DNA of 62,062 nucleotides, the filler included, from Babesia bigemina (Eukaryota), in the NCBI RefSeq assembly GCF_000981445.1. It is 10 parts of 10 records of this genome, joined end to end, with 100 filler letters (N's around TTAATTAATTAA, not from the genome) between each part and the next. Parts side by side here need not be neighbours in the genome. Positions count along the whole stretch, not along the records: positions 52,539 to 59,808 come from NW_012237005.1; 9 more parts are not named here. One strand, 5' to 3'. The notes below the pieces were generated by a model that worked only from the letters and a program-made list of their open reading frames with translations, was not told where the DNA came from and did no database searches. A program made the translations under genes and the position numbers. Of the stretch, positions 12,009 to 62,062 are shown piece after piece; position 1 is the stretch's first letter; the number at the start of each line of letters is the position of its first letter.

Positions 12009-12012
12009 GGCA

Positions 12013-36329: not shown

Positions 36330-36357
36330 AGCGGTAATATGGCGAGGTAATTCGAAG

Positions 36358-36592
36358 GATGTAGAGTGGATTAGGGAGCGATGTAGAGTGGGTTAGGGAG
36401 CGATGTAGAGTGGGTTAAGGGGCGATGTAGAGTGGGTAAAGGGGCGATGTAGAGTGGGTAAAGGGGCGATGTAGAGTGGATAAAGGGGCGATGTAGAGTG
36501 GATTAGGGAGCGATGTAGGGTGGGTAAAGGGGCGATGTAGAGTGGGTTAAGGGGCGATGTGGAGTGGATAGAGGAGCGATGTGGAGTGGATA
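36358..36592 (-). repeat. 22-bp repeat array (complete, about 11 units)
   Basis: GCGATGTAGAGTGG units on +. Confidence 0.95.
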
Positions 36593-36616
36593 ATAATCAT
36601 CACTCTGGTCACCACT

Positions 36617-36897
36617 GTCATCGCTGCCGTGAGCATGTCATCGCTGCCGTGACCATGTCATCGCTGCCGTAACCATGACATCGCTGCTGTGTCCATGTCA
36701 TCGCTGCCGTGACCATGTCATCGCTGCCGTGACCATGTCATCGCTGCCGTAACCATGTCATCGCTGCCGTGACCATGTCATCGCTGCCGTAACCATGTCA
36801 TCGCTGCCGTGACCATGTCATCGCTGCCGTGTCCATCTCATCGCTGCCGTGACCATATCATCGCTGCCGTAACCATGACATCGCTGCCGTGACCACC
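36617..36897 (-). repeat. 20-bp repeat array (about 14 units)
   Basis: GTCATCGCTGCCGTGACCAT units. Confidence 0.95.
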
Positions 36898-37067
36898 AAC
36901 TTGGTCACCACGTTGGTCGTGGCATTGGTCACCACTTTGGTCAGGTGCTTGGTCACCACGTTGGTCAGCACGTTGGTCAGCACTTTGGTCACCACGTTGG
37001 TCATGGCATTGGTCAGCACTTTGGTCAGCACTTTGGTCAGCACATTAGTCAGCACCTTGGTCAGCAC
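36898..37067 (-). repeat. 12-bp repeat array
   Basis: TTGGTCAGCAC[G/T/A] units on +. Confidence 0.9.
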
Positions 37068-37196
37068 TTTGCCTGGTTGCTAGGTCAACACGTTGCCTGG
37101 TTGCTAGCTTACCACGTTGCTTGTGTGCCAGCTTAGCACTTAACCTGTCGGTTAGCTTAGCACTTTGCCTGGTTGCTAGCTTAGCACTTAGCTTGG
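37068..37196 (-). repeat. 24-bp repeat (CAAAGTGCTAAGCTAGCAACCAGG in gene orientation)
   Basis: CACTTTGCCTGGTTGCTAGCTTAG units on +. Confidence 0.85.
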
Positions 37197-37336
37197 TCGT
37201 TCACTCATCATCTAATCTTGGTGCTATCTAGTTCACAGGTTGCCGCTAGAGTAATTCGAGACATTAGACTACGTTTGTTGGTTAGGTGAGTAGGTGATTC
37301 GCTAAGTGAGTGTAGTGATTAGAAACGTGAATACAA

Positions 37337-38860: not shown

Positions 38861-39039
38861 AACAACATTTGGCNNNNNNNNNNNNNNNNNNNNNNNNNNN
38901 NNNNNNNNNNNNNNNNNTTAATTAATTAANNNNNNNNNNNNNNNNNNNNNNNNNNNNNNNNNNNNNNNNNNNNTAAACCACTCCACATCGCTCCCTAACC
39001 CACTCTACATCCCTTTAATTACCTCGCCATAATACCGCT

Positions 39040-42000: not shown

Positions 42001-43956
42001 AGTCTCATCAACGAAAACAACACCGGTCGAGATGTCGCGGTGCGTTTAAGTAGAGTGTTCAGAAATCATGGTGAATTCAATAGAGAGCCTACCGACTTTA
42101 AATCTTGGGAAGACTACAAAGAGTACTATAGACACGGTAAAGGTATTCTATTGAAACTGTTCACCCACCTAAACGAATACTACGAAGTCTGCCACTACGG
42201 TACCATGTTCGCCACCAAGCAACCGTCGAGCGTATACGAAATGCTGCTATGGTTGTCCGGTTTTCCATACAATCCTGTCTACCAACCGTTGTCATTTAAC
42301 GGATTCAGTGAGCTGTTTGAGAAGGAGGAGAACAACGCTGCTAACAGTGAGGGGGACGAAATCTTGCTTGAAACCGACGACGCCGATAGTCTGCCTGCCT
42401 ACCCGGAGAACATCACCGTTGGAGGAATATCAGGCATACTGACGGAAGTATGCCATCAGGCTCACGACGTACTTACATCTATACTTGGCCATGGACACGC
42501 GGACGGAATATATGCGGTGGACTTCAACACCAATTCTCAAGGGTTCTCGTATCCCTCTCGCTACGGCCAATGCATTGATATGCTGGTAGACATCTTGCAT
42601 CGTCTTTACCAACAGCTCTACTTCGTATACTGCCAATGCTGCAACGACGAAATCTGTTCCGGGTGGCGGGGTTGTTTGTATGGCAATGCAATCGGTGGGT
42701 CAGATTGGAAGTGCAACTCAAAGCAATGCGCTGACCAAAAGTGTAACCAAAAGGTCAACCAAACGTGTGAGTTACACCCTAAGTGCGGTGTAAAATCCCC
42801 GTTACAGTCATACTTAGAGGATGGTTTGCCGGGTTTTCTACCACACCCATTTAAGAAACCAGGTTGTAAACTAGAATGCACTGTGTCCAACCATCGCGGC
42901 ATACCGTGTAAGACGCCAATGGGCTTTACAGATATAAGCACTATGGCATCGCATACTCAGATAGGTGAACATCTTAGGAAGGTGCTTGCAGAATTTTGTG
43001 GAAAACAGGGTAGTCCACTTACGAAACTTTGTGGTTACTTCAACTGTCTGTTACAAACGCCTCCGCAGACTCTCGGCGATATGTTCGCCTTTTACTACAA
43101 TTTCACCAATCGCTGGAGCATGGGTAATAGCGAGCATAGGGAAGCAGCATTCAACACTGCGGTGAACAATGCAAACTTTGGCGTTAATTATGAAGAGCTA
43201 AAGGTTTACTACATATTTTCCTTTAGTCACTCAGAAGCGTGGACGGGGCATTCTGCTGGTAGCCTGGGAAGTCTCGTATGCTTATCAAGGGAAGCCGTCG
43301 TATGCGGTCCTTATCTGCGTCCCATCAGTAACGCCATCTACGAGACGTTCTCGTCAAAACACGCCGATAAGTACTTGTCGTGGATTGTCTATCTGACGGC
43401 GACGTTCTACGATCTGCTGAAGAAATTGTACGATGAGTGCAATTCCAAATGCGGTGCCAGGGAATCAAATTGCCATGAAAAGGCGTGCATCAAGGGGTGT
43501 CCAACTACAACCATACAAGATCCGCCACGATATCACCATCGCGACTGCAAATCCATTGTGAAATGCAATTCTACGCTGCCGACATTGGCGAAGTACGGCT
43601 TCGTTTTCGGCGATCCAGAGAGGCTGAGCGGGAGTGAACGACCGCAAACGAAACGCACGTGCAGAGATTTCTGTGATGTATTTGCGGAGGCATTTGAGAA
43701 GGACTCACATCTTGTGCAGTTTTTCAAAGCCATTGATAATTTCATTTTCACCATCCGCGCACCGTTCCTGTGGGTGACCGTCGCACTCTGGTCACTATCC
43801 CTCTTCTACCTCATCTGCGTAATGGTTGGCAGACTGGATGTGCTCCACATCAAATCACACCTGAGGGTACCGTCATCGCACAAGATAACTGCTCAATCAT
43901 TGTTGGCTGCAGCGCAAGTCGGAAGGCTTGCCAAGATATCGTATCTACAACCGTGA
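39040..43956 (+). CDS. ves1: ves-like gene, tail class B; leader ATG changed to GTG (39040) and TAA at 39148-39150
   Basis: Open frame from 39151 (FDKILNLKITSNNNP..NLCTDLETFLGFN) to ...GRLAKISYLQP; preceded by 22-bp repeat remnant 38974-39012. Confidence 0.88.
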
Positions 43957-46080: not shown

Positions 46081-46450
46081 TGTCATCGCTGCCGTGACCA
46101 TGTCATCGCTGCCGTGACCATGTCATCGCTGCCGTAACCGTGTCATCGCTGCCGTGACCATCAACTTGGTCAGCACTCTGGTCATGGCATTGGTCAGCAC
46201 GTTGGTCACCACTTTGGTCAGCACGTTAGTCAGCACATTGGTCAACACTTTGGTCAGCACATTGGTCAACACTTTGGTCAGCACGTTAGTCAGCACATTG
46301 CTCACCACTCTGGTCAGCACCTTGGTCACCACGTTGGTCATGGCATTGGTCAGCACTCTGGTCATGGCATTGGTCAGCACTTTGGTCATGGCATTGGTCA
46401 GCACTTTGGTCATGGCATTGGTCAGCACATTGATCAGCACATTGGTCATC
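46081..46450 (-). repeat. 20-bp repeat (46081-46160, 4 units) plus 12-bp repeat (46161-46450)
   Basis: Directly visible units as in other cassettes. Confidence 0.92.
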
Positions 46451-46547
46451 AACGCAATCATTACTGTCTACAACATTAGATGCCAGTTGCCAGTTAGGTG
46501 ATCGGTGGGATTTGGATTACGATCTTTGCGCTAACAAATTACTGAGT

Positions 46548-46709
46548 TCAGCTGTAGAACGCGATGCAGAAGGGTATCTTGCGTACGAGGAAATCGCGGA
46601 TGTTGCGGCCCACCGGGAAGCGGAAGATGCACAGGTCGAGCAGGATGATGGCGACGATGATGCCAACGATGACGGCGGCGATGGCTTGGGGGGCAGGTGC
46701 TAAGTCACC
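46548..46709 (-). other. Start-less TM/cytoplasmic-tail coding segment (APAPQAIAAVIVGIIVAIILLDLCIFRFPVGRNIRDFLVRKIPFCIAFYS*)
   Basis: 54-codon frame with a clear TM helix and basic stop-transfer residues, no ATG, TTAG candidate acceptor ending at 46700. Confidence 0.65.
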
Positions 46710-46790
46710 TCACTGCTCATGTGATTGATCGTCAACGCAATCACTACTGTCTAGCATATTAGACTTCAGTTGCCAGTTGGGTTATTGCGA

Positions 46791-47225
46791 TCAGCTGCGC
46801 AGTAGATACCGCACCCTGTGGAACGGCCGGACGCGGAAGTAGATCATGACGCAGATGATGACGATGATGAGGGCGACGGGGACGATGATGTAAGGGGCGG
46901 GGTTGGTGATAGGCTGTTTACCGGTTTGCTGCTCAGCATTGGGGAGAGAGGGGGAACCGGGGGCAAGGCCGGCATGGGAGGAAAGGGTGGCATACTGGGT
47001 ACGTACAGATTCTACATTGCGTGCATTTCTACGACAAAAACAGGAACAATAAGAATTACATTTTATACAACCTTCAGAATGGCATTGATCGTTCATTTGC
47101 CGCTCATAGTAAGTATTGCGACATACAGGACATTTTCCTCTACAGGATATACAAGTCATGTAGCAGCATCTACAATAGTTCTTTTGACAATCTGTACCAC
47201 ACTTACACCGTTCCTCTCTCCCCAT
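46791..47225 (-). CDS. Small Cys-rich protein with C-terminal TM helix
   Basis: 144-aa ATG-initiated ORF: CKCGTDCQKNYCRCCYMTCISCRGKCPVC..., TM YIIVPVALIIVIICVMIYF, then RVRPFHR. Confidence 0.7.
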   Translation of the reverse strand: MGREERCKCGTDCQKNYCRCCYMTCISCRGKCPVCRNTYYERQMNDQCHSEGCIKCNSYCSCFCRRNARNVESVRTQYATLSSHAGLAPGSPSLPNAEQQTGKQPITNPAPYIIVPVALIIVIICVMIYFRVRPFHRVRYLLRS

Positions 47226-47229
47226 CTTC

Positions 47230-47770
47230 CCGCTCCCCTCCCACTCCCCTCAACCTGCAAACATATCAATCACCTAAGCAGCACTCACCAACTAACACGT
47301 ACCACTGCCGCTACCAGTCCCCTCAACCTGCAAGCATATCAATCACCTACGCAAGCACTCACCAACACAACACGTGCCACTGCCGCTACCAGTCCCCTCA
47401 ACCTGCAAGCATATCAATCACCTACGCAAGCACTCACCAACTGCAACACTACCACTGCCGCTCCCAGTCCCCTCAACCTGCAAACATATCAATCACCTAG
47501 CAACGCACTCACCAACTGCAACACTACCACTGCCGCTCCCAGTCCCCTCAGCCTGCGAACATATCAATCACTCAGGCAGCACTCACCAACTGCAACACGT
47601 AACACTGCCGCGCCTAGTCCCTCAACCTGCGAACATATCAATCACCTAGCAAGCACTCACCAACTGCAACACGAACACTGCCGCTCCCAGTACCCTCAGC
47701 CTGCAAACATATCAATCACTCAAGCAACGCACTCACCAACTACCACGTACCACTGCCGCTCCCACTCCCC
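47230..47770 (-). repeat. ~75-bp intron/mini-exon-like repeat array (paralog of 45200-45745)
   Basis: CTGCAAACATATCAATCACCTAGCAACGCACTCAC units on +. Confidence 0.92.
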
Positions 47771-48287
47771 TCATGAACACTCACCCTCACCGCTGTATCC
47801 CCCCAGCCCGGGCCACCGACACCCACACTGCCCAGGATACCACAGCTACGCCTGACGCGACGCATGTGATCAGCACCAACTGTCACTTTAAATTATTAAA
47901 TATTCGCAACGCCGTAAAAATTGCAGCGACCCGTGCGCTCAACTCCCACAGTGCAGCAGCACCGTGCTACGAGCCGCGGTATCGGCGCCATACTGCCGGA
48001 GCGTGTCGGCTACGTGCCTAAATGTGATATTAACAATCGCTACATTGCCGCCTATAAATGCTACCTAACCAGGCCAACGCGGATTACTCCACCCTGCCAG
48101 TGACTCGCAACGCACGTCTAGGTCACCCGCCGCGGCCCTCACGACCGCCTACGTTAGCGGCCAATCACCCAGCCTCACGTGACACTGAGTCAATAGGCAA
48201 CGCGGACACCTCTCACAGTCGACGCACAACTCAACGCACCAGACAATCAACGTGCCACAACACGCACCAAATTACGGTTCATCCGCC
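47770..48287 (-). other. Conserved ~500-bp unique segment (paralog of 44706-45200) with a broken signal-peptide exon
   Basis: Strongly similar to the reverse complement of 44706-45200; same position relative to a class B ves 3' end. Confidence 0.8.
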
Positions 48288-48686
48288 AGCTTAGCACTTA
48301 GCCTGTGTGCTAGCTTATCAATTTGCCTGGTTGCTAGGTTAGCACTTTGCCTGTGTGCTAGCTTAGCACTTTGCCTGGTTGCTTGCTTACCACTTAGCCT
48401 GGGTGCTAGGTCAACACTTTGCCTGGTTGTCAGCTTATCACTTTGCCTGTGTGCTAGCTTAGCACTTTGCCTGAGTGCTAGCTTAGCACTTTGCCTGTGT
48501 GCTAGGTTAGCACTTTGCCTGGGTGCTAGGTCAACACTTTGCCTGTCTGCTAGGTTAGCACATTGCCTGGTTGCCAGTTTATCACTTTGCCTGGATGCTA
48601 GGTTAGCACTTTGCCTGGTTGCTAGGTTTGCACTTTGCCTGTGTGCTTGCTTAGCACTTTGCCTGGGTGCTAGCTCAGCACTTTGC
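48288..48686 (-). repeat. 24-bp tandem repeat array
   Basis: TTAGCACTTTGCCTG[G/T]GTGCTAG units on +. Confidence 0.95.
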
Positions 48687-48832: not shown

Positions 48833-51800
48833 TTACGGTTGTAGGTACGATATCTTGGCAAGCCTTCCGACTTGCGCTGCTGCCAACAATGACTGCGCCG
48901 TTATCCTGTGCGATGATGGTATCCTCAGGTGTGAGCGGATGTGGAGCACATCCAGTCTGCCAACCATTACGCAGATGAGGTAGAAGAGGGATAGTGACCA
49001 AAGTGCGACGTTGAGCCATATAAACGGCTGTCTGATGGTGAAGATATATTTGTCGCACTCCTTGAACAAAGCTGTGAAATGTGTTGATTGCAGTACATTT
49101 TTCAGTTGTATGTAAAAATGATGGCAGTAACTCTTACTGCTATCGCCGTGCAATTTAGTCGAATCGCCAAATGTGAATCCGTAACTGTAGAAGGTACTAC
49201 TTACACCGCGGCATTCGACAAGTCCACGACACTGACAGTTCTCAATGCCGTGCTTACCGCGAGAACATTTGGTGCCATGCGTACAACGACTGCATCCCCA
49301 GTCGCGGCAGGAGATATTGCCGAATGAGTCCAGCAGTGATTTCAAGCAATCGTACAATGCCAATGGTAAATAGAGAGCCCATGAAAAATACAGTTCTGAA
49401 TGCTTCTCGGCGAGATAGGTGTATGAATCCTCGCATAGAGATTTAAGATACGGAGCGCAATGAAGCTTATCGCTACTAGCAAACGTACATGGCGTCGATA
49501 CCGAAAGCGTGGACAGGTCGGCTTCTGAGTATTTGGCATGTCTGGAGCTGTCGTGGCTGCGATAAGCTTTCTGAAGCGCATTCGTGAAGTCACTCGTGTC
49601 CTTGTACAGTTCAATAGACATCTCTTTAATCGCCGTTTCAAATGATGTTTTGACGGCACTGTCGTTGACGCCTTTGCTATTCTCCAGCATACGCACTAAT
49701 GTAGATACAAACTGGTAGTGTTCTGGTAACGTAGATGGCGGTTTGGGCATCAAGCAAAGCAACGATGAATATTGCACATCGAAGAAGAATTTGGTTAGCG
49801 CTTTGCATAAGTCTTTACCTGTCTTCATACTACCTGAAAAGCCACGGAAGCCGAGAGGAGTAATGCACGGTTGCCCAGGGAGAACCTTAGGACACGTCGC
49901 ACATTTGGCCTTGCAACCGATGCTGCTTACCTGGTGAGGCAAGTGGCCGGTAAGGCAATCGGACAAATAAGACTGAAGTGGCGACGTTGGTTGGCACTTT
50001 GCCTGGCACTTTGGTTGACCATCTGCTTGGCACGCTGCTTTGCCCGTTGAGTGATCATTACACTGCGATTTGGATGACTCTACGCCTTTACCGTACCAAC
50101 AGTCGGACCAACCGCGATGTTCGGCAGTCAACTCACACTGACTGTGCAAGAAGTTGAGCGATGGCAATAAACTACGGAGGATGTCAAGCAGCATTTGTAG
50201 GCAGTCGTCGCCTTTGGACGGGTAGTGTAGATTTAGTGAATTACTGCAAAAGTCGACGGCGTACATGGAGTACGCGTCTCCGGTGCCGAGGATTGCAGTC
50301 AGCAGATCGTAGGATCTCAGACAGAGGTGGCGCACTGCCTTTACGCTATTGCCATACGTGATGTTACTCGGGTACGCGTTCAGGTATAAGGAATCTGGCG
50401 TGACTAGCGTGAACTCATGGTCCTCGCCGGCTTCCGTCGTTTGCTTCTTTGGATCCTCGAATAACTCACTCATCGTGTCACGCAACAACGCATCATATAC
50501 AGAATTGCACGGCAACCCACACAACCAGCACAGCATTTCAAACACGGAAGATGGTTGTCGCTTCGCAGCGAAAGTGGACTGGTGACAGACTTCATAATAT
50601 GTTTCGATGCAGTTGTGCAGAGTTTTAAGTGGACCGTTGTCCTTATCAGCATCATGATGTCTGTAGACACGGCCATCGGCATTCTTAACGAGGCTTTTGT
50701 AAACATGCCAGCCTAGCATACCATCTCCGTTCCGCAACTGGCCGTCTTGTATGTCCTTGGATACGACGTATCCGTTGTTGCCGAGAAAGTGTCCGATTGG
50801 TGTCGATTGATTTATCTTGTCAGACCTCCACATGGTACCGGAGTACTTCCTCACTGTGTTCAACACATTGTATGACGTCGAAACTACGGTCAAGCAGACC
50901 TTACTTAACTTGGTTCCGTACGCTGTTAATTTCCCTTTTTCTTCAAGGTTAGCACCAAACCTCTCACTGTCGTAGGTCGAGATGTACGCATTGTTGAGCT
51001 CCGTTGCCGAAGTCGTGAAACCGTTCTTCAGAGCATTGAGAAGCGAAGGGGTATTCCCTTCACCATATAATGAAGGCTTCAATTCACTGAGCGTTACTTT
51101 CAGCGCCGATAGATTTCGAGAAAACTCGTGATTGAAGTACTCCGAAGTGACAAGATCTCCGAACAACTTAGCCAGCGCGTCACGTGTTGGCTTAATTTTT
51201 TCATAGTCCGTTTTGAAGTCCGGCTGCTTCTCTAGATCATGCAAAAACCTATTTAGGCTTCCAAAGAACTTTGCTGCCGCCTGACTCATTGGTGATTTTT
51301 CTTGCGCAACGGGCTTAGGATTTATGTCTTTGATGGTCTTGATTGACTTTTCGTGCGTTACGAAGTGCTTCTCAAATTTCTTCATGAACCCCTTGTAACC
51401 GATGTCCAAATCGTCGGTGATTTCCTTAGGTAGAGGCGCCAACTCCTTCTCGGCTTTCTCCGCGAACTCTAGCAGAATGGCTTTCACTGACGTGACGTAG
51501 TTCTTGTTGACTTGGGTGATGAGATCGTTCTGGGCTTCTTCGACGTTGGAGCTTACTACGCCTCTGATTGACGTGATTGTTGCCTGGGCTGTTGGATCGG
51601 CGCTGGTGAGGAAGTTCTCAGCATCCCTGATTGCAGCGCTTAAATCAAAGGTTTGTAGCTCACCAAGTTTGTTCTTAATACGCGCCAATTTCTCCTTTAT
51701 CGTCGTATTGAGCAATGCCCTGAGATTATCCACGCCGTATGTGCCTTCAGTTTTGATGGCCTCGCAGAGCTGTGTGAGATTCTCCTTCACCGCTTCGAAC

Positions 51801-52438
51801 TGTTTGAGAGCTGCCTCATCAAAGGTGGTGAGGATTCCCAGGTTATCGGTAACCTGGGTTTGTATGTCACTGAGAGCGTTGGTGATGTCTTGCTTGATGG
51901 TCTCGAGGCCCTTGGTGGATGCTTGATCAGGCCAGGTTTCATTATTGGCAAAGCCGGCGTCATGCAGATCTTCCAATCTGTTGATCACGTCCTTCTTGTC
52001 ACTGTTGAGCAAGATGTTATTTCGAAGGTTGGTGAGCTCAATCCCAATGTTGCCGATGCCACCGGTGATTGTGATGCTTCTGTTCAGACTGTCTTGATGC
52101 AATTGCCGAATAGCAGTAGTGATCGTTTGGAGGCCAGACACTTTACCAGTTCCGTGTGATCTCCAATTCGACGTATCACCAAGACCGTTGCTTAGCAAAA
52201 CCATGTAATCTTTGATACCATTTTTGTCACCGCTGTAACCGCTAGGAGTATTGCCGTTGTTCTTGCTCTTATCAATGAACCAAGCGGCCTCCTTCAGCTC
52301 ACTTATAATCGTAGTTACATGCATTTTAACAGCTTTCTCAGCATCATCAATAGCGCCATTCGTGAGTCTTTGGGCAGTTTGTTCTTTATCTCTGAAAGCC
52401 TCCAGTTTCTCGAAATCTTTAAGCGCGCCATTAACGTT
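48833..52438 (-). CDS. ves1: ves-like gene, tail class B, 5' truncated by gap
   Basis: Frame open from the gap (NVNGALKDFEKL...) to ...QVGRLAKISYLQP; SPLQSYLSDCLTGHLPH and CITPLGFRGFSGS motifs. Confidence 0.88.
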   Translation of the reverse strand, partial: NVNGALKDFEKLEAFRDKEQTAQRLTNGAIDDAEKAVKMHVTTIISELKEAAWFIDKSKNNGNTPSGYSGDKNGIKDYMVLLSNGLGDTSNWRSHGTGKVSGLQTITTAIRQLHQDSLNRSITITGGIGNIGIELTNLRNNILLNSDKKDVINRLEDLHDAGFANNETWPDQASTKGLETIKQDITNALSDIQTQVTDNLGILTTFDEAALKQFEAVKENLTQLCEAIKTEGTYGVDNLRALLNTTIKEKLARIKNKLGELQTFDLSAAIRDAENFLTSADPTAQATITSIRGVVSSNVEEAQNDLITQVNKNYVTSVKAILLEFAEKAEKELAPLPKEITDDLDIGYKGFMKKFEKHFVTHEKSIKTIKDINPKPVAQEKSPMSQAAAKFFGSLNRFLHDLEKQPDFKTDYEKIKPTRDALAKLFGDLVTSEYFNHEFSRNLSALKVTLSELKPSLYGEGNTPSLLNALKNGFTTSATELNNAYISTYDSERFGANLEEKGKLTAYGTKLSKVCLTVVSTSYNVLNTVRKYSGTMWRSDKINQSTPIGHFLGNNGYVVSKDIQDGQLRNGDGMLGWHVYKSLVKNADGRVYRHHDADKDNGPLKTLHNCIETYYEVCHQSTFAAKRQPSSVFEMLCWLCGLPCNSVYDALLRDTMSELFEDPKKQTTEAGEDHEFTLVTPDSLYLNAYPSNITYGNSVKAVRHLCLRSYDLLTAILGTGDAYSMYAVDFCSNSLNLHYPSKGDDCLQMLLDILRSLLPSLNFLHSQCELTAEHRGWSDCWYGKGVESSKSQCNDHSTGKAACQADGQPKCQAKCQPTSPLQSYLSDCLTGHLPHQVSSIGCKAKCATCPKVLPGQPCITPLGFRGFSGSMKTGKDLCKALTKFFFDVQYSSLLCLMPKPPSTLPEHYQFVSTLVRMLENSKGVNDSAVKTSFETAIKEMSIELYKDTSDFTNALQKAYRSHDSSRHAKYSEADLSTLSVSTPCTFASSDKLHCAPYLKSLCEDSYTYLAEKHSELYFSWALYLPLALYDCLKSLLDSFGNISCRDWGCSRCTHGTKCSRGKHGIENCQCRGLVECRGVSSTFYSYGFTFGDSTKLHGDSSKSYCHHFYIQLKNVLQSTHFTALFKECDKYIFTIRQPFIWLNVALWSLSLFYLICVMVGRLDVLHIRSHLRIPSSHRITAQSLLAAAQVGRLAKISYLQP

Positions 52439-52538: not shown

Positions 52539-55500
52539 CTGCAAAAAAAACTAAGAGACAATGTACAGAGGGTGGAATTGGAGGTTGAAAAGTTTTCAAA
52601 AGCTGCTAGCAACACTGAGTTGAGAGCGTTGCTGAAGGAGGGAGAGATGGAGTTCAAAAGCTTAAAAGATAGCGTAAAAGAAAAAGTGCTTAACCGCGTA
52701 CACGAAATGGGAAATGAAATTGAAAGACAGTTTAATGCACAAATTGAGAAACCGATAAAGAATGTTGATATAGAACTGAAGAAGGTCAAAACAGATTTGC
52801 ATGGTTGGATCCAGAAAGCGGAGGGTGCCGTAAACGCAGTAATATGGAGGTGCGATCAGGTATTGGAAAAAGTTAAAGAAAAAAGTCCAGGTCCTATGAA
52901 AACTCCAATTGGAATGGCAGCTGAGAAATTGCAGTCTGAAGCACTTAGGCTGCGTGATGCAGCGGAGCAAACTGTATCGGCGGTTAAGGTAAAAGTTGAA
53001 AATGCTGAGTTTCAGTTGAAAATCTTGAATAATTCTCTCAAGAAAGATCTCGCCAATGTAAAATGGGAAATTATGAAGAAAATAACGGGCGTTAAGACGG
53101 CGATTGGATATCTCCATAACACTGTTACCGGCAACGTGGGACTAGTGGATGTGAAGAACAAAAAAATTGAGAAGGTGATAGAACATATTAAGAATGCTGT
53201 TGAGGGAATAAAGGGGCATGTTGGTGATTCAAAAAAACCTGAATACAACAACCCAAAGGATGTAAGCATATATTACAATTGGGATGATATCAGAGAAACC
53301 ATTGGCGACTATGTCGCTAAGATTAAAGGTGAAAAGGGCAAAGGTGCACTTCACAATACCGAAGGTCTTACTCAAATAGTTACTGGTATAGGTGAGTATG
53401 CAAAGGCCTTTGGCGCTTACCTGGAGAGTCAGGTTCATAGTAAGTGGTTAAATGAAATCGTTGAAGAAAAAGACGGTGCGTTGAATAATCAGATTTATTC
53501 GTACGTTTACAGTAAATCAGAAATATCTGGCGTCGGTCACAATGAGAAAGCTGCAAAAGTTAAAAGAGCGATTAAGAGTGCACTTCCAGGTGTTATTAAC
53601 GGACTAATCGAACAAGTTGCTATGGAGTCCGGTGTAAAAAGCGCGACAACGGAAGACATCGCTAATACATACAAGACATTTGTTGAAGAAATTAAGAATA
53701 AGATTGCAGATGACTCACTTGTTAAGGCGGCGGTGTTGTTAGTTGAGGGCGAGTTGGGAGTAGGAAACAGTAATCCGGATACTCCTACATACAATGCGTT
53801 GAAATATGTGCTCTACACAATCCTTAAGTCATTGGAAAACAGCATTCAACGAATTGCTTCCGAGATTAACAAATTTGCCGATGACGCTAAAATAGCCACC
53901 CTTAATACGATTATAGCAAACGTTGACAGAATCAGAGAGCAAGTTGACAACAGACGTAAACTCGACTACGAAAAATACCTCGGCCATAAAATCGACACGG
54001 CGTTGAAAGCAGCTCACGAAAAAATTAAAACGCTGCATGATAATCTTGGTGTGGCGCTTGACCCAGGTTCTACCGATGACAACCCTAGTAACGCTAAATT
54101 AGTCGATCAAGCAATTGACTGCATGAAGGAGACGCTTGATACACAACTGCCGTGGTATGCAAGCAGTCATGTTGATACAGGATTCCCACTTCTGCAGAAT
54201 GGTGAAGTTTCCCTTCAGACATTGACGACATACGAAAATGCTAAAGACGGCACAGGCGTAAGGAAGACGCTAGAGACAGCAATCAAGGATATTGAAGACA
54301 AAGGGCTGAGAAAACTGGAACTCATCGGTCGAAACCCAAGTCCTGGAGTTAATATGATTGACGAGCAAACCTTCACGTCTCAGGTCACCATTGTCAAAGA
54401 ACAACTAGCAGTGCTTGCTGGGTTGGTTAAGAGAGGCGAGGGAACAAAACCAGCAGGAAACGACGAAAATGGTATGCAAGATTACTTGCAAGATTTAAAA
54501 GAGCTGTTTGGAGATCGTGAACACAAACTCACTACAACAGGTTTCAAAGGTTCGACTGTGAAAGGCCTCGAAAAAATTTGGAAGCACGCTCTCACTATAC
54601 TTGGTAATGATGCGAATGACAGCAAGCCTAACACATTGTCCACGATAATTCATAAAGCTACCAATTTCTACACGTCTGTCATCGCTCCCGCAGCTACCGA
54701 AACCATCAACGGAATCAAGGTTTTCATCGAAGAGCAAGTTGCCGCAAAAATTAATAGTATTCAAGAAACAGCCAGAACTGTATATTATCTGAAAATTACC
54801 GACATGTTTCATACGATGCGGAATAGAGTTACTACCAACATAAATACAATTAATGAAAAAATTGCTGAAAACTTGTCCACCGGCGTAAAGGGATTATTTA
54901 AAAATATGCATACGCACAAAACCATCATAGATACTGTCGCCAGTAAATCTGATTTTGTCCCCGCCTCCATCCAGTTTTGCCCCTTCCTCACCAAACTCAT
55001 CGACTACGTGAATGGCGATGTTAAGAAAATCGACGAAAATTTCGGCCGTATCAGCAATCTCAACATTCATGTCAAAAACCTCTTCCTCGGACTATCAGAA
55101 TTCAAACATTTTAACAACGAAGTCTCCCTCCGCCTCTCCACCCTCTCCTCCGCTACCTCCGCCCTCGACCCCCAAGCGCTCCCGGACGCAGGACGGCCCG
55201 TGCTCAGGGCGCTGCAGCAGGGGATGATGGGATTCGTCGGAGAGCTGGGGAAGGGGTATGTGAATAGGTATGATGGAGGTGAAAGTATTAAAGAGTGGGT
55301 TAAAAGAGACGGTGAAAAAGATGTTTTGACGCCTGAAGGAAAAAATGGCGCTAAGGTGTTTTTGACGCTGCTGGAGATACTGGGTCATGACCTAACGATG
55401 CTGAGGAATGAATGCAAGCTAAATTGGAAAAAACAGAAAGTATGTCTTAAGAAATCGAACGGAAACCGCTATGAACTTGGTCGCTTCCTCAAAGATTGCG

Positions 55501-57554
55501 GTTACGGAGTGCCAAGCCAGGAAGGCAAGCAGGACGATGAGTTGAAGTGGAAAGATGAGTGGACCAGTGAGAAAATTGTTAGCAGACTGGAAACGGTTAT
55601 TAAAGCGGCCGAGACAGTTACACATCTTCAAAAGTGTGAGACAAATCTGAATGAACATCGTACACCAAAGAAGACAAATAACATTGACATCTTCGACATC
55701 ATTGAATGTATCATGTCTCACCTTAAAGAGTACTACCGCGTTGGACACCTAGCCACATTAAACGCGAAGAAACATCCGTTATCTATTTACGACATGTTGC
55801 AATGGCTCACCGGCATTCCGAATAATCCCGTGTATGTAGATTTGTCTGCCGACGGTTTCGATAGCCTGTTCGATAAGCCTAAAGCGGACTCCACAGACAC
55901 CGAAGACGGTGATATCACTGTTGATCCCAACGTCGAATCGTTGAATACTTACAAGGAAACAATCACTCCAGTGTTACTATCAGGTGTATTAACAGAGGTA
56001 TGCGCACAATCGCATTCGGTGCTCACCGCCGTGCTAGGTCACGGCCACGCGGGAGGTCGTTACGCCTGTGAGTTCAACACAAATACTGACGGCTTTATGT
56101 ACCCAAGTGACATGAACGCGCTAATCTGTATGATGTTCGAAATTGCAAAGCGCCTTCACCACCAGCTCTATTTCTTGTATCGGCAGTGTCATGATGGCAC
56201 TGACCTCAGCGGTTGGTCCGACTGTTGGTATGGTAATTCAATTGCCGGATCATCTTGGAAGTGTAACACCATCCAATGTCCAAACCAAACGTCCAACCAA
56301 ATGGAGAACCAAAAGCACAACCAAAGTTGTGACCAAAAGTGTAACCAAACAGCTAACTGCGGACTCAAATCTCCTCTTCAATCTTACTTGGAAGATGGTC
56401 TTCACGGCTTCTTGCCTCATCAACTCAAAGTTGAAAGGGGGCAACTTGTATGTTCAGTGAAGCACTCTAATATGCCTTGTAAGACTCCCATGGGATTTGC
56501 CGATATTAGTTACATGGCATCGCATAGGCAGCAGGGTAAGCATCTAAAGGAAGTGCTATTTGACTTCTGCAGCGAGGAATGGTCTGCTCTAAGTAGGCTT
56601 TGCGGTATTCTCAACTGTTTGCTGCCCAGCGCCCCCAAAACGCTGCAAGACATGTTTGGGTTCTACAATACGTTCCTCAGTGGATGGAGTAAGACTGTGG
56701 AGCGTGAGTTCAACAAAGCGGCAAGTGAGGCAAACTTCAATCGCGATAATGCATCGTTGGAGATCCGACCAATATTCAGCAGCAGCGATCATGGTGAATC
56801 AAACAACATGCCGCATCTTAAAGGTGATCTTTATTCTCTCGTTAACTGTAAGTATAGTACCAATGCTCACCCAGCGTATCCATGCGGCCCGTATTTGCGG
56901 CCAATGTGCTACTATAGCTGCGGCATCTTCGCGGCGAAGCACAATGACAAATATCTCTCTTGGATTGTATACTTGACAGAGACATTCCACAATCTGTTAG
57001 AGCAGTTGTACAACGATTGTTGTAAAAATTGCGGGTCCTCAACATCCAAGTGCCGTGTTAGCAAATGTGCCGATGGTTGCGGAGCGAAGGCCAAGCCAGA
57101 CAATCTAGTCGCCACCCACAAGGAGACGTGTAATTCAATTGTACACTGCAAATTAATGCGGCCGACCTTATTCAGATACGGTTTCGTATATAGAAACATA
57201 CGCAGCTTGAGTGGCGTTGATACAGTACAAGCTAAACGCACATGTAAAGATTTCTGTGACGCGTTAGAAAAGGTTATTAACAAGCAAGAAAAATTACACC
57301 GTGCGCTAGCCGAATTAGTATATCGCACAATTCCTAATTACCTGTTCCAGATCCGCTTCCCCTTCATGACCTTAACCCTTTCCCTCTGGCTCCTCTCTTT
57401 GCTGTACCTCCTCCACATCATGGTCATCCGCCTCGACCTGCTCCACATCAAATCGCATTTGCATAGTCCGTCGAGTCATCGCATAGCTGCTCAATCACTG
57501 CTCGCTGCTGCACGTGTTAACAAGCTTAACAGAGTGTTTTACCTGCAACCATAA
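52539..57554 (+). CDS. ves1: ves-like gene, tail class A, 5' truncated by gap
   Basis: Frame open from the gap (LQKKLRDNVQRVE...) to ...ARVNKLNRVFYLQP; CGLKSPLQSYLEDGL. Confidence 0.88.
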   Translation: MQKKLRDNVQRVELEVEKFSKAASNTELRALLKEGEMEFKSLKDSVKEKVLNRVHEMGNEIERQFNAQIEKPIKNVDIELKKVKTDLHGWIQKAEGAVNAVIWRCDQVLEKVKEKSPGPMKTPIGMAAEKLQSEALRLRDAAEQTVSAVKVKVENAEFQLKILNNSLKKDLANVKWEIMKKITGVKTAIGYLHNTVTGNVGLVDVKNKKIEKVIEHIKNAVEGIKGHVGDSKKPEYNNPKDVSIYYNWDDIRETIGDYVAKIKGEKGKGALHNTEGLTQIVTGIGEYAKAFGAYLESQVHSKWLNEIVEEKDGALNNQIYSYVYSKSEISGVGHNEKAAKVKRAIKSALPGVINGLIEQVAMESGVKSATTEDIANTYKTFVEEIKNKIADDSLVKAAVLLVEGELGVGNSNPDTPTYNALKYVLYTILKSLENSIQRIASEINKFADDAKIATLNTIIANVDRIREQVDNRRKLDYEKYLGHKIDTALKAAHEKIKTLHDNLGVALDPGSTDDNPSNAKLVDQAIDCMKETLDTQLPWYASSHVDTGFPLLQNGEVSLQTLTTYENAKDGTGVRKTLETAIKDIEDKGLRKLELIGRNPSPGVNMIDEQTFTSQVTIVKEQLAVLAGLVKRGEGTKPAGNDENGMQDYLQDLKELFGDREHKLTTTGFKGSTVKGLEKIWKHALTILGNDANDSKPNTLSTIIHKATNFYTSVIAPAATETINGIKVFIEEQVAAKINSIQETARTVYYLKITDMFHTMRNRVTTNINTINEKIAENLSTGVKGLFKNMHTHKTIIDTVASKSDFVPASIQFCPFLTKLIDYVNGDVKKIDENFGRISNLNIHVKNLFLGLSEFKHFNNEVSLRLSTLSSATSALDPQALPDAGRPVLRALQQGMMGFVGELGKGYVNRYDGGESIKEWVKRDGEKDVLTPEGKNGAKVFLTLLEILGHDLTMLRNECKLNWKKQKVCLKKSNGNRYELGRFLKDCGYGVPSQEGKQDDELKWKDEWTSEKIVSRLETVIKAAETVTHLQKCETNLNEHRTPKKTNNIDIFDIIECIMSHLKEYYRVGHLATLNAKKHPLSIYDMLQWLTGIPNNPVYVDLSADGFDSLFDKPKADSTDTEDGDITVDPNVESLNTYKETITPVLLSGVLTEVCAQSHSVLTAVLGHGHAGGRYACEFNTNTDGFMYPSDMNALICMMFEIAKRLHHQLYFLYRQCHDGTDLSGWSDCWYGNSIAGSSWKCNTIQCPNQTSNQMENQKHNQSCDQKCNQTANCGLKSPLQSYLEDGLHGFLPHQLKVERGQLVCSVKHSNMPCKTPMGFADISYMASHRQQGKHLKEVLFDFCSEEWSALSRLCGILNCLLPSAPKTLQDMFGFYNTFLSGWSKTVEREFNKAASEANFNRDNASLEIRPIFSSSDHGESNNMPHLKGDLYSLVNCKYSTNAHPAYPCGPYLRPMCYYSCGIFAAKHNDKYLSWIVYLTETFHNLLEQLYNDCCKNCGSSTSKCRVSKCADGCGAKAKPDNLVATHKETCNSIVHCKLMRPTLFRYGFVYRNIRSLSGVDTVQAKRTCKDFCDALEKVINKQEKLHRALAELVYRTIPNYLFQIRFPFMTLTLSLWLLSLLYLLHIMVIRLDLLHIKSHLHSPSSHRIAAQSLLAAARVNKLNRVFYLQP

Positions 57555-57677
57555 TCGTACTCACGTGTTTACTACCTACACTCACCTAGCATCACCTACT
57601 CACCTAACCTATGAATTGTGCTTTAATCTGTTTTATCACTCATTAACCGCTGTATGTGATTGTGTAGTACTTAACTA

Positions 57678-58550
57678 AAGTGCTGACCAATGTGCTGACC
57701 AACGTGGTGACCAATGCCATGACCAACGTGGTGACCAACGTGTTGACCAATGTGCTGACCAATGTGCTGACCAACGTGCTGACCAAAGTGCTGACCAAAG
57801 TGGTGACCAAGGTGCTGACCAAAGTGCTGACCAAAGTGGTGACCAAGCACCTGACTAAGTTAGTGGTCACGGCAGCGATGACATGGTTACGGCAGCGATG
57901 ACATGGTCACGGCAGCGATGACATAGTTACGGCAGCAATGACATGGTCACGGCAGCGATGACATGGTCACGGCAGCGATGACATGGTGGCCAAAGTGGTG
58001 ATTATCATCCACTCTTCATCGCTCCCTAATCCACTCTACATCGCCCCTTAACCCACTCTACATCGCCCCTTTATCCACACTACATCGCTCCCTAACCCAC
58101 TCTACATCGCTCCTTAACCCACCCTACATCGCTGCCTTATCCACTCCACATCGCCCCTTTATCCACTCCACATCGCCCCTTATCCACTCTACATCGCTCC
58201 CTAACCCACTCTACATCGCCCCTTTATCCACTCTACATCGCCCCTTAACCCACTCTACATCGCTCCTCTATCCACTCCGCATCGCCCTTTACCCACTCTA
58301 CATCGCTCCCTAACCCACTCTGCATCGCTCCTTTATCCACTCTACATCGCCCCTTTACCCACCCTTCATCGCTCCCTTATCCACTCCACATCGCCCCTTT
58401 ATCCACTCTACATCGCTCCCTTATCAACTCTACATCGCTCCCTTATCCACTCTACATCGCTCCCTAACCCACTCTACGTCGCCCCTTTACCCACTCTACA
58501 TCGCTCCCTAACCCACTCTACATCGCCCCTTAACCCACTCTACATCGCCC
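57678..58550 (+). repeat. Complete intergenic repeat stack: 12-bp (57678-57863), 20-bp (57864-57987), junction, 22-bp (58008-58550)
   Basis: All three arrays contiguous between two head-to-tail ves genes. Confidence 0.95.
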
Positions 58551-58783
58551 AAATTACCTTGTCATTATACCGCTATGACCTTCTTAAACCATTTTAATAA
58601 CTTGTGCCTTGTCACCCTTCACTTCCCTCTTCCACCTTTTGCCACTGCCATGTCCCATCATGTTCACCCTAACTCCAAATCTCTCTAATTACTTCGTCTT
58701 ATTAACGCTATGACCTCCATTAAACATTATAATAACTTGCTGATACTGACCATTCTCTTACTGACGATGCTACTAGAAGAGCC

Positions 58784-59805
58784 TTGAATGACATCCAGTC
58801 CAAGTTGCAGCAGGTTAAAAAGCTTGGAGAGAGTCTTAAAGGATTGACTGAAGAAAACAGTTGTAAAAATCTCTTAGAGAATTTATGTTCCGGCCTCGAA
58901 ACTTTCCTCGGCTTCAACTCTGACTCCAAAGGCTACGACGGCAGTGGTATTGTGTACTCCGACCTGGACAGGCTGTGTGATGCAGTGATGGGATTTTTGT
59001 ATCAGGTGCTTAAGGATGTCAGCGAGAAACAGCCTTACAGTGTGGGTAAAACAACGTTAATTAGTGCGACTAAAGAGATTAGAAAAGAAATTTGGAATGG
59101 TCATGAAGCTTTAAAAGGTGTATCCAAAAGGTCACCGGTAAAGTGTCGGCATACAATATGAGTGTTATGAATTGCAATGATAGTTTGAAAAATCTAATCG
59201 AGAAGTTGATAGATTACTCAAAAACCGACGGATCGTTGATGAAAGGCGTTAAAAGCATTGATGCTGATAAAGTGACTGGGACGTCTGGGAACGACGCACA
59301 GGTGTACCAGACTGAAAAGTTGCTGCTAAATTGCATTACATACATAAAAAAATTCAACAGCGATATAGATACAAACAAGCCACAAAACAAAAAAATTAGA
59401 GAGGCACTCAACGATCTTAATTACAAGCTGCGTGACAAAATAGACACTGCTCGTAATGTTATAAAATATGAGACTGAGCGTTTGACCAAGTTGTCGGCAA
59501 AGGAGTCTGACGATTTGGGAACAATGAAAGAATTAATATCGACAAAACTTGAAAACGTCAAAAGCTGCGTGAATGATAATATAGATAAAGATGTAAAATT
59601 GTTGGCGGACAGATTAAAGGAGGCGGTTAAAATAATTTTGGTTTTGCTTGAAAAAATTGATACGAATTTGACTAAGTATGTTGGCGAATTGGAAGCATGT
59701 ATCAATAGTGCGGACAGTATGATTAACAGTGCAATGGAAGGGATGCAGAAGATGGAAAGAAAAGAGATTGGCAGATCGCAACTAACGAATTTACACGTCG
59801 ACTGA
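58784..59805 (+). pseudogene. ves1: ves-like gene 5' part with a frameshift near 59120-59143; ends at the contig edge
   Basis: RRALNDIQSKL...NLCSGLETFLGFN..YQVLKDVSEKQPY in one frame, continuing as VTGKVSAYNM... in another. May be a sequencing error. Confidence 0.7.
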
Positions 59806-59967
59806 CGTNNNNNNNNNNNNNNNNNNNNNNNNNNNNNNNNNNNNNNNNNNNNTTAATTAATTAANNNNNNNNNNNNNNNNNNNNNNNNNNNNNNNNNNNN
59901 NNNNNNNNGCAAATTCAGCTTTGAAACCGAATTTCCCTGGGGGGTTTTTGCATCAAATCATTTCGAT

Positions 59968-60609
59968 GTGCGTGTGGTGTTTTTAAGGATATTCCCGGCC
60001 ATTATTTGTCGGGGTTGTTTTCATATCGGAGACGTTTTGGGATTGCTCAAACAGTTGTATGAACAGTGCTGCCGTAACTGCAATAAAGTAGGGTCACGAT
60101 GTCATGACAGAAGTTGTGTCAATGATTGTCAAGTAAACAAATATTATGCTTCTCCGAAACCCGAATACATCGATAACATTAGGCATGAATATGCTTGCGG
60201 TTCCATTATTAATTGCCGCGCTACCCATGCAGCTATATATGCATTGGGGTTCACTTTTGGTAGCCCACATGAACTGAGCGGTGAAAAAGAGAGGAAAACA
60301 AAACGCACGTGCCAAGATCTCTGCACCGCGCTGAAACACATATGCTCCGACGGTTCTGTGCTCGCACGACTTGTCCATGAATATATTCCCAAATTCCTGT
60401 GGGAAATCAGGGAGAAATTCTTCTGGACCACTGTCGCACTCTGGCTCCTCTCTCTCTTGTACCTCATCCACATCATGGTCATCCGCCTCGATCTCCTCCA
60501 CATCAAATCGCATTTGCACTCACCATCATCGCATCGCATCGCTGCTCAATCACTACTTGCCGCGGCACGTGTTAACAAGCTTAACAGGGTGTTTTATCTA
60601 CAACCATAA
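59968..60609 (+). CDS. ves1: ves-like gene 3' end, tail class A (5' truncated, low-quality start)
   Basis: LYEQCCRNC...KRTCQDLC, TM, ...ARVNKLNRVFYLQP. Confidence 0.85.
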   Translation: MRVVFLRIFPAIICRGCFHIGDVLGLLKQLYEQCCRNCNKVGSRCHDRSCVNDCQVNKYYASPKPEYIDNIRHEYACGSIINCRATHAAIYALGFTFGSPHELSGEKERKTKRTCQDLCTALKHICSDGSVLARLVHEYIPKFLWEIREKFFWTTVALWLLSLLYLIHIMVIRLDLLHIKSHLHSPSSHRIAAQSLLAAARVNKLNRVFYLQP

Positions 60610-60732
60610 TCGTACTCACGTGTTTACTGTCTACACTCACCTAGCATCACCTACTCAACTAACTTATGAATTGTTGTTTAATCTGTTGTATTACTCATCA
60701 ATCGTTGTATGTGATTATGTAGTAATTAACTG

Positions 60733-61955
60733 ATGTGCTGATCAAGATGCTGACCAAAGTGGTGACCAATGTACTGACCAAGGTGGTGACCAATGCCATG
60801 ACCAACGTGGTGACCAAGATGCTGACCAAAGTGGTGACCAATGTACTGACCAAGGTGGTGACCAATGCCATGACCAACGTGGTGACCAAGATGCTGACCA
60901 ATGTGTTGACCAACGTGTTGACCAATCTGCTGACCAAGGTGCTGACCAAGGTGCTGACCAACGTGTTGACCAAGGTGCTGCCCAAAGTGTTGACCAATCA
61001 CCTGACCAAAGTGCTGACCAATGTGCTGACATGGTCACGGCAGCGATGACATGGTTACGGCAGCGATGACATGGTTACGGCAGCGATGACAGTCACGGCA
61101 GCGATGACATGGTTACGGCAGCGATGACATGGTCACGGCAGCGATGACATGGTCTCGGCAGCGATGACATGGTCACGGCAGCGATGACATGGTCACGGCA
61201 GCGATGACATGGTCACGGCAGCGATGACATGGTCACGGCAGCGATGACATGGTCTCGGCAGCGATGACATGGTCACGGCAGCGATGACATGGTCACGGCA
61301 GCGATGACATGGTCACGGCAGCGATGACATGGTTACGGCAGCGATGACATGGTGACCAAAGTGGTGATTATTATCCACTCTACATCGCCCCTTAATCCAC
61401 TCTACATCGCCCCCTAACCCACTCTACATCGCCCCTTTACCCACTCTACATCGCCCCTTTATCCACTCTACATCGCCCCTTAACCCACTCTACATCGCTC
61501 CCTAACCCACTCCACATCGCCCCTTTATCCACTCTACATCGCCCCTTATCCACTCTACATCGCCCCTTAACCTTCTCTAATCGCTCCCTTATCCACTCTA
61601 CATCGCCCCTTTCACCACTCTACATCGCCCCTTTCACCACTCTACATCGCCCCTTCATCCACCCTACATCGCCCCTTAACTCACTCCACATCGCCCCTTA
61701 ACGTCCTCTAATCGCCCCTTAATCCACTCTACATCGCTCCCTAACCCACTCTACATCGCCCCTAAACCCACTCTACATCGCCCCTTAATCCACTCTACAT
61801 CGCCCTTTTACCCACTCTACATCGCTCCTTTACCCACTCTACATCGCCCCTTAATCCACTCTACATCGCTCCCTAACCCACTCTACATCGCTCCTTATCC
61901 ACTCTACATCGCCCCTTTACCCACTCTACATCGCCCCTTTATCCACTCTACATCT
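60733..61955 (+). repeat. Complete intergenic repeat stack: 12-bp (60733-61030), 20-bp (61027-61352), junction, 22-bp (61373-61955)
   Basis: Same order as 57678-58550. Confidence 0.95.
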
Positions 61956-61982
61956 CTCGAATTACCTCGTCTTATTACCGCT

Positions 61983-62062
61983 ATGACCTCTTTAGACCAC
62001 ATAATAACTTGTGCTTGGTCACCCTTCACTGCCCTTCTGACTGAGTCCATCGACTGGTTGAT
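61983..62062 (+). CDS. ves1: Start of next ves-like gene (MTSLDHIITCAWSPFTALLTESIDWL...), runs off window
   Basis: Leader followed by ESIDWL, the ves N-terminal motif also seen as EGIDWL at ~4350-4370. Confidence 0.6.
   Translation, partial: MTSLDHIITCAWSPFTALLTESIDWL

What the first reader, a model, noticed from the sequence alone, without database searches (positions are those of the whole stretch)
57554..58784. Stereotyped repeat-flanked ves cassette array: candidate silent donor archive for antigenic variation
Seen: three contigs span gene-to-gene (36329-37337 on -, 57554-58784, 60609-61983). All show the same head-to-tail order: YLQP stop > conserved 3' flank > [24-mer] > 12-mer > 20-mer > GTG(G/A)TGATTAT(T/C)ATCCACTC junction > 22-mer > 57-bp leader > next ves. 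Every other contig end fits part of this order. Known: Trypanosoma brucei silent VSGs sit between upstream 70-bp repeats and a conserved 3' end, Pneumocystis MSG donors begin at a conserved junction element (CRJE), and Babesia bovis varies ves1 by segmental gene conversion into an expression locus (LAT) with head-to-head ves1 alpha/beta. Inference: this is a different, VSG-like architecture in which the repeat stack and leader give 5' homology and the tail gives 3' homology for conversion into an expression site. I do not know of a description of this repeat stack but cannot confirm novelty.
Basis: partly seen in the sequence, partly recalled or inferred. Interest (0 to 1): 0.9.

Follow-up and report, generated by a model that had tools for sequence, protein, structure and literature searches.

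The report
Headless ves1b gene archive in Babesia
In the cattle parasite Babesia bigemina, many surface-antigen (ves1b) genes sit head to tail, lack their start and are separated by a fixed stack of short repeats; they likely form a silent parts store whose pieces would be copied into intact genes to change the infected red cell's coat.

Summary
The window is ten joined Babesia bigemina contigs; nine carry ves1b genes, and three span tail > flank > (24-mer) > 12-mer > 20-mer > junction > 22-mer > leader > next ves. The leader is fused at four different points inside the coding sequence, and its ATG cannot reach the body in 7 of 8. The bodies stay open and show purifying selection. Among public B. 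bigemina models, 61 of 86 are truncated, on small contigs and scaffold ends. One interior gene shares 816 identical residues with a leader-type cassette, starting right after a conserved 5' block. The dominant expressed ves1b in two published datasets is an intact gene. Best reading (0.55): a silent donor archive with crossovers in conserved coding blocks. The VSG-like role for the repeats is unlikely, since copying them in would delete the start. Against: sharing with intact genes is rare (3 of 1,800 pairs), and neither direction nor switching is shown. Not found in six literature searches. New variant of a known kind; interest 0.65.

The parts
52539..57554 (+). ves1b cassette body (c9a), open from the contig edge to the tail-A stop
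57417..57554 (+). conserved post-transmembrane tail, type A; likely 3' homology block
   Evidence: 85-92% nt identity among 4 type-A tails, 58-65% to type B
57555..57676 (+). 3' flank type A
   Evidence: alignment of 8 flanks
57677..57846 (+). 12-mer array
57864..57987 (+). 20-mer array, nested in the 12-mer array
57995..58014 (+). junction: 12-mer remnant meeting the 22-mer
58007..58548 (+). 22-mer array, C-rich on the ves strand (GC skew -0.8)
58549..58623 (+). leader 1; its ATG is out of frame with the ves body
58624..58684 (+). short ves remnant plus one degenerate 22-mer; likely scar of a deleted cassette
   Evidence: same in c4; nested form also seen in a contig of run X1
58685..58739 (+). 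leader 2, fused to ves coding sequence at DTDHSL
58740..59808 (+). start-less ves1b cassette c9b, with a frameshift near 59140
58874..58990 (+). conserved 5' coding block (LCxGLETFLGF..GIVYSDL..VM); likely 5' crossover zone
   Evidence: pN/pS 0.24 over 7 cassettes; breakpoint
59909..60609 (+). 3' end of a ves1b cassette (tail A)
60610..61954 (+). spacer: flank A, 12-mer, 20-mer, junction 61361-61380, 22-mer
61957..62062 (+). leader fused at ESIDWL; lacks only the first ~16 ves1b codons
   Evidence: joint also in contigs of run X2
36304..37336 (-). spacer with flank B, 24-mer, 12-mer, 20-mer, junction, 22-mer, leader
31689..36303 (-). start-less cassette c6a, frameshift next to the leader
37337..38872 (-). 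3' part of cassette c6b (tail B)
6744..12029 (-). complete start-less cassette c2 (1761 open codons, tail A)
14480..18973 (+). start-less cassette c3, stop next to the leader
20179..25116 (+). complete start-less cassette c4 (double leader, tail A); a mosaic of public cassettes
26080..31428 (+). complete start-less cassette c5 (tail B), stop next to the leader
39151..43956 (+). complete start-less cassette c7 (tail B), stop next to the leader
48833..52438 (-). 3' part of cassette c8 (tail B)
46449..48290 (-). optional insert after the 24-mer: conserved block, 75-mer array, start-less Cys-rich/transmembrane ORF 47249-46791 and a second transmembrane-tail piece

Best explanation
These are head-to-tail arrays of B. 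bigemina ves1b genes that lack their start but keep open bodies, and they likely act as a silent archive whose segments would be copied by gene conversion into intact ves1b genes. Shown: start-less cassettes, a fixed spacer, open bodies under purifying selection, mosaicism, and one long tract shared with an interior gene. Inferred: a break in an intact, promoter-bearing ves1b is repaired from a cassette. The 5' crossover falls in conserved coding sequence (the GIVYSDL block, or ESIDWLIQV for the longest cassettes), and the 3' crossover in the Cys-rich domain or the tail. Inferred: the arrays lie near chromosome ends; the repeat stack pairs cassettes with each other, drives gain, loss and shuffling of whole cassettes, and helps keep them silent, as Plasmodium rep20/TAREs are thought to. 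Inferred: the variable 5' truncations come from deletions that start in the C-rich leader region and stop short of the GIVYSDL block. Switching among the intact genes in place is probably the first tier of variation; the archive would be the second.
For: (1) None of 8 window starts has the LTDCPENL N-terminus; four different fusion points; the leader ATG is out of frame or stopped in 7 of 8, and c10 runs off the contig. (2) Lesions cluster beside the leader (4 of 4 in the c3/c5/c6/c7 class), yet c2, c4, c5 and c7 are open for 1601-1782 codons to the tail, at mean 34% pairwise protein identity among 8 bodies. (3) pN/pS is 0.24 in the 5' block, 0.64 in the leader-proximal stretch and 0.33-0.62 in the last 500 codons. 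In 4 of 6 cassettes the block lies upstream of the first in-frame Met, so it could be translated only after transfer. (4) Of 86 public B. bigemina models, 61 are truncated (all ending YLQP/A; 51 of at least 1400 aa) and 25 are intact-type, 22 of them on chromosome-size contigs. Truncated chromosomal ones carry end-of-scaffold tags. (5) Interior gene BBBOND_0310230 and leader-type cassette P0155 differ upstream of the block, are identical for 816 residues right after it, then diverge. Intact P0122 shares a 73-105-residue tract with cassette P0065. (6) 45 of 72 truncated sequences share a near-exact tract with another sequence; c4 and c7 are patchworks. (7) In a C-terminal tree intact and truncated genes intermix; at least 6 label changes are forced. 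(8) Published proteomics lists 18 ves1b rows; the 12 in my set are all intact-type, and none of 8 truncated end tags appears. In a published RNA-seq table the top ves1b I checked is intact (98-310 CPM); 1 of 8 truncated end genes passes the filter, at 1-2 CPM.
Against: Sharing between intact and truncated genes is about 8-fold rarer than among truncated ones (3 of 1,800 versus 35 of 2,556 pairs; pairs are not independent), and only 2 of 25 intact genes take part. Only 2 of 25 intact genes have the cassette tail types A or B, against 50 of 61 truncated. The labels cluster on the tree (9 changes versus 15.6 shuffled). BBBOND_0310230 has a decayed N-terminus and no tail, so it may be a dead end or an assembly chimera, and protein identity gives no direction. 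18 of 21 intact genes also fail the RNA-seq filter, and reads came from another strain, so silence of the cassettes in particular is not shown. 'Truncated' for public models rests on gene models; at least 12 of 59 start in the leader itself, the rest at internal Mets. In 5 public models the leader ATG runs in frame into the body. Only 120 of 281 hits of the first search were listed.
Confidence: 0.55

Rival explanations
1. Graveyard: chromosome-end duplication copies ves1b genes without their 5' ends; the repeats expand as satellites, and the cassettes swap among themselves but add little to expressed antigens. Variation comes from switching among the intact genes.
For: Rare intact-truncated sharing; distinct tail types; expressed ves1b are intact genes in both datasets; frameshift in c9b.
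Against: Dead copies should resemble living sources and collect stops throughout. Here the truncated pool is larger than the intact one, c3/c5/c6/c7 share one truncation joint but have very different open bodies, and lesions pile up beside the leader.
Confidence: 0.22
2. The cassettes are real genes expressed in place as N-terminally shortened proteins from the leader ATG or an internal Met, with the 22-mer and leader as promoter and 5' UTR.
For: Bodies are open; the leader ATG is in frame in 5 public models and in c10 up to the contig end; several ves-sized genes on unplaced contigs show 0.5-5 CPM in blood stages.
Against: The leader ATG fails in 7 of 8 window copies; the fusion point varies; the block upstream of the first Met is conserved as protein; low counts may be cross-mapping from expressed mosaics.
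Confidence: 0.12
3. One reading: an expression site carries the same repeats and leader upstream, and whole cassettes are copied in between the repeats and the tail.
For: Stereotyped, strongly skewed repeats before every cassette; conserved tail and flank; 70-bp repeats and the C-terminal domain serve so in T. brucei (PMC6152948 passages).
Against: VSG donors bring their own start (recalled); these do not, and most would give no protein behind a copied leader. The mapped breakpoint is in coding sequence. Array genes point away from the scaffold end (3 of 3 with coordinates).
Confidence: 0.08

Closest known systems
BbigVes1b family of B. bigemina (PMC4066756)
   Same: Same gene family; that paper reports recombination, 0-3.3% orthology at conserved loci, and 37-44% of loci unassembled, mostly subtelomeric.
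   Different: In parts 2-7 of 10 that I read, it does not separate intact from start-less copies and describes no repeat stack or leader.
B. bovis LAT with segmental gene conversion (PMC6630957, PMC2034396)
   Same: Conversion of expressed ves genes from silent donors; truncated ves1 were proposed as functional pseudogenes.
   Different: B. bovis ves are mostly interior head-to-head pairs; here the donors are head-to-tail, uniformly start-less and punctuated by a fixed repeat stack.
Pneumocystis msg-I with UCS and CRJE (PMC10622565)
   Same: Subtelomeric open cassettes that need an upstream start; crossover in a conserved coding junction; mosaics.
   Different: msg-I all begin at one 33-bp junction and use a single promoter; here there are four or more fusion points and about 25 intact genes.
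Trypanosoma brucei VSG archive with 70-bp repeats (PMC6152948)
   Same: Upstream repeats, conserved 3' end, many defective silent copies.
   Different: The upstream repeat here abuts a truncated coding sequence and likely cannot prime a productive switch.
Plasmodium falciparum TARE1-6/rep20 beside upsB var (PMC8989538)
   Same: An ordered stack of short subtelomeric repeats upstream of variant genes, tied to heterochromatin.
   Different: One stack per chromosome end before intact var genes; here the stack recurs between cassettes. No sequence relation was tested.

Membership tests
BbigVes1b | Homology to annotated B. bigemina ves1b proteins | tested here: met
   99% to a B. bigemina protein and 40-50% to many others; several of these tags are labelled ves1b
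BbigVes1b | Cys-rich C-terminal domain, one hydrophobic segment and a conserved tail | tested here: met
BbigVes1b (intact gene) | N-terminal M..LTDCPENL start | tested here: not met
   0 of 8 window starts
VESA1 (Pfam) | Match to a VESA1 profile | tested here: inconclusive
   No VESA family hit for window ORFs or for known intact ves1b
VSG-type 70-bp-repeat cassette | Repeat array upstream of silent genes | tested here: met
   22-mer before 8 of 8 starts
VSG-type 70-bp-repeat cassette | Donor carries its own start behind the repeat | tested here: not met
VSG-type 70-bp-repeat cassette | Same repeat in the expression site, with breakpoints in it | not testable with these tools
   no genome held
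Pneumocystis UCS/CRJE | All donors begin at one conserved junction | tested here: not met
   four fusion points; all keep the GIVYSDL block
Pneumocystis UCS/CRJE | Single-copy upstream start | tested here: inconclusive
   25 intact-type models, but two unplaced ones share a 26-residue start and cassette-like bodies
B. bovis LAT | Head-to-head ves1 pair with a short shared promoter | tested here: not met
   3 of 3 gene-to-gene contigs are head to tail
B. bovis LAT | Segmental mosaicism of ves sequences | tested here: met
Subtelomeric repeat (TARE-like) | Location next to telomeric repeats, in heterochromatin | tested here: inconclusive
   end-of-scaffold tags and coordinates; no telomere tract seen and chromatin not testable

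The most novel reading that the evidence does not exclude
B. bigemina has a dedicated ves1b expression site that supplies a constant start (the MRHVP-type N-terminus), and whole cassettes recombine in at ESIDWLIQV or the GIVYSDL block: a Pneumocystis-like system in an apicomplexan. P0121 and P0122 lie on separate small contigs, are identical for exactly 26 residues (to the end of ESIDWLIQVR, where the longest cassettes begin), have cassette-like bodies, and would be two switch states of that site. B. ovata would share the design with another C-rich repeat.
Probability: 0.22. Interest if true: 0.85.

Novelty: new variant of a known kind. Interest (0 to 1): 0.65.

Why it matters
How B. bigemina varies its surface antigen is open; a 2022 paper calls the role of its VES proteins unknown. 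If true, most of its ves1b repertoire is a start-less archive now annotated as 'hypothetical protein', with defined crossover zones that make switching directly traceable by PCR and long reads. It would change ves gene counts, explain the near-zero ves1b orthology between strains, and add an apicomplexan case of convergence on cassette-type antigenic variation.

Tried and rejected
No genome is held, so genome-wide co-occurrence of repeats and ves could not be tested. The run search listed no RNA holder, which says nothing on expression; contig depths were not used. Splicing of a distant first exon onto the cassettes: AG sites at the joints are inconsistent, and in c3, c5 and c7 a stop follows the candidate site; not favoured. 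The 75-mer units look like mini exon-intron pairs but do not keep a frame. Strict G-quadruplex motifs are absent from the 22-mer (0 with loops up to 7; 2-3 with loops up to 12), so no G4 mechanism is claimed. Rfam: 0 hits in 57300-62062. Pfam: no curated hit. The atlas gave only scores under 0.8 for the insert ORF, and the wider search for it never ran because the queue was full. P0121 and P0122 are absent from the published RNA-seq table; this is uninformative across strains. Three look-ups of earlier findings were empty. The B. ovata GFF supplement could not be read; it would give array layout there.
Full report
Source and layout. The window is ten contigs joined by N-linkers. A search with residues 900-1645 of the contig-4 ORF gave a 99% match to a Babesia bigemina protein and 281 hits, 120 of them listed, all named ones from B. 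bigemina or B. ovata. Several hit tags are labelled ves1b in published tables. No whole genome is held.

The observation. Contigs 6, 9 and 10 run from one ves stop to the next ves in the order flank, optional 24-mer, 12-mer, 20-mer, junction, 22-mer, leader. The junction occurs 4 times against 0 in 100 shuffles. There are two linked versions: tail A with flank A goes straight to the 12-mer (c2, c4, c9, c10), and tail B with flank B is followed by the 24-mer (c5, c6, c7, c8). The 20-mer array is nested in the 12-mer array. The 22-mer is C-rich on the ves strand (skew about -0.8). Exceptions: contig 1 has no ves1b, and contigs 7 and 8 carry an insert after the 24-mer. Contigs from two other public runs cover leader, 5' block and tail, and show the leader joined to ves at several points.

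Intact ves1b models begin M..LTDCPENLRE(S/A)IDWLIQV. None of the 8 starts in the window does. The leader is fused at ESIDWL (c10), near PKSQALKS (c2), at DTDHSL through a nested second leader (c4, c9) or at SSTSCHC (c3, c5, c6, c7). Its ATG is out of frame or stopped in 7 of 8; c10 is in frame for the 26 codons visible. All four SSTSCHC-class copies have a lesion beside the leader, yet c2, c4, c5 and c7 are open for 1601-1782 codons to the tail. c9b has a frameshift near 59140, and the last codons of c3 before the contig edge were not resolved. pN/pS is 0.24 in the 39-codon GIVYSDL block over 7 cassettes, 0.64 in the leader-proximal stretch over 4, and 0.33-0.62 in the last 500 codons over 21 pairs, with synonymous sites near saturation. 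The block lies before the first in-frame Met in 4 of 6 cassettes.

The wider family. Of 86 public B. bigemina models in hand, 25 are intact-type (22 on chromosome-size contigs, 3 on small ones; two with mis-called starts were moved to this class by eye) and 61 are truncated. At least 12 of the first 59 truncated models begin in the leader itself. Truncated chromosomal models carry tags at scaffold ends (0200030, 0300020, 0300060, 0313950, 0314030-50, 0400020), and at least 14 of the last 26 models of chromosome 3 are labelled ves1b (placed by accession order). Three end genes with coordinates point away from the scaffold end; scaffold ends are not proven telomeres. In B. ovata, 40 of 66 models are truncated, and three mis-joined models read from one ves tail into a truncated next gene, one of them through a low-complexity Thr/His/Pro stretch that fits a C-rich repeat. 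This is inference from protein only.

Exchange. Near-exact tracts of at least 40 residues, outside the tail, link 35 of 2,556 truncated pairs, 5 of 300 intact pairs and 3 of 1,800 mixed pairs; 45 of 72 truncated sequences have a partner. c4 resembles P0154 over residues ~100-350 and is identical to P0002 from ~900; c7 holds a 147-residue piece of P0046. BBBOND_0310230 has its own, decayed N-terminus and is identical to leader-type cassette P0155 for 816 residues starting just after the block. P0122 shares a tract with cassette P0065. A tree of 81 C-terminal halves (17 sequences left out for lacking the anchor motif or the tail) mixes the two classes, with 9 changes, at least 6 forced, against 15.6 for shuffles. 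The pools are therefore connected but mostly separate; only 2 of 25 intact genes have tail A or B. P0121 and P0122, on small contigs, share their first 26 residues and have cassette-like bodies; only the first five residues are distinctive, so this is a modest lead.

Expression, from papers. In the proteomics sheet of PMC4066756, 18 rows are labelled ves1b; 12 are in my set and all are intact-type. Unplaced models may not have been labelled. In the RNA-seq table of PMC9806345 (another strain mapped to the reference, 1 CPM filter), 3 of 21 intact chromosomal tags pass, the top one at 98-310 CPM. 1 of 8 truncated end tags passes, at 1-2 CPM. 23 genes on unplaced contigs pass; those of ves size show 0.5-5 CPM. 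This fits one dominant intact gene, but it does not show that cassettes are more silent than unused intact genes.

Mechanism. Shown: start-less open cassettes, fixed spacers, mosaics and one long shared tract. Inferred: cassettes are donors, crossovers use conserved coding blocks, and the repeats serve pairing, array turnover and silencing. A conversion primed in the 22-mer or leader would carry the truncation into the recipient, so the VSG-like role is unlikely. The nested leaders in c4 and c9 look like deletion scars, which suggests how the truncations arise. Odds: archive 0.55, graveyard 0.22, expression in place 0.12, VSG-like 0.08.

Literature. Searches found no description of this stack or of start-less ves1b arrays; most subscription journals are not held. 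Seen: PMC4066756 parts 2-7 of 10 and supplement passages; PMC5660447 passages and 60 of 81 supplement rows; PMC9806345 passages and supplement rows; PMC10463595 passages and section 14; PMC6630957 passages and part of section 7; PMC2034396 passages and part of section 11; passages only of PMC10622565, PMC9500797, PMC8989538 and PMC6152948. Figures were not visible. Truncated ves as donors was already proposed for B. bovis, and B. caballi expresses one dominant ves1c near a telomere. Recalled, from no call: that VSG donors carry their own start, and that VSG and msg genes point toward the telomere.

Verdict. Real, and more specific than reported: a new variant of a known kind, interest 0.65. 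The donor role is plausible but unproven.

Noticed in passing
window 46449-48290 (minus) and 44706-45745 (plus): Insert after the 24-mer: a conserved ~500-bp block, 75-mer units that read as a ~40-nt exon plus a 34-36-nt GTGAGT..CAG intron without keeping frame, then a start-less Cys-rich transmembrane ORF and a second transmembrane tail. Its only homolog found is BBBOND_0313960, inside the chromosome-3 end array. Possibly a second cassette type.
   Followed up: partly
window 58906-58927 and 11643-11664: A primer of the standard B. bigemina SpeI-AvaI diagnostic PCR matches the conserved 5' ves1b block (2-3 mismatches). The paper's best genome match, LK055252.1, carries a ves-sized gene between the accessions of two cassettes. 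The diagnostic target is likely ves1b.
   Followed up: partly
window 57555-57610 and the other 3' flanks: Several ACTCACCT copies, which read as splice-donor consensus on the antisense strand and resemble the 75-mer motif; could be a protein-binding site or an antisense transcript.
   Followed up: no
window 13253-13400: The 22-mer array starts with degenerate 21-mer units; many units hold CCCTAA-like hexamers on the strand expected for telomeric C-strand sequence (Babesia telomere unit). Telomeric origin not tested.
   Followed up: no
window ~4000-4409 (minus), contig 1: A ves-type start (EGIDWL class, recalled as ves1a/ves2) followed by early stops; no repeat stack in the ~580 bp upstream.
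   Followed up: no
window 5093-6519: The 20-mer array reaches 72 copies here against 4-16 elsewhere, so array lengths vary widely or are mis-assembled.
   Followed up: no
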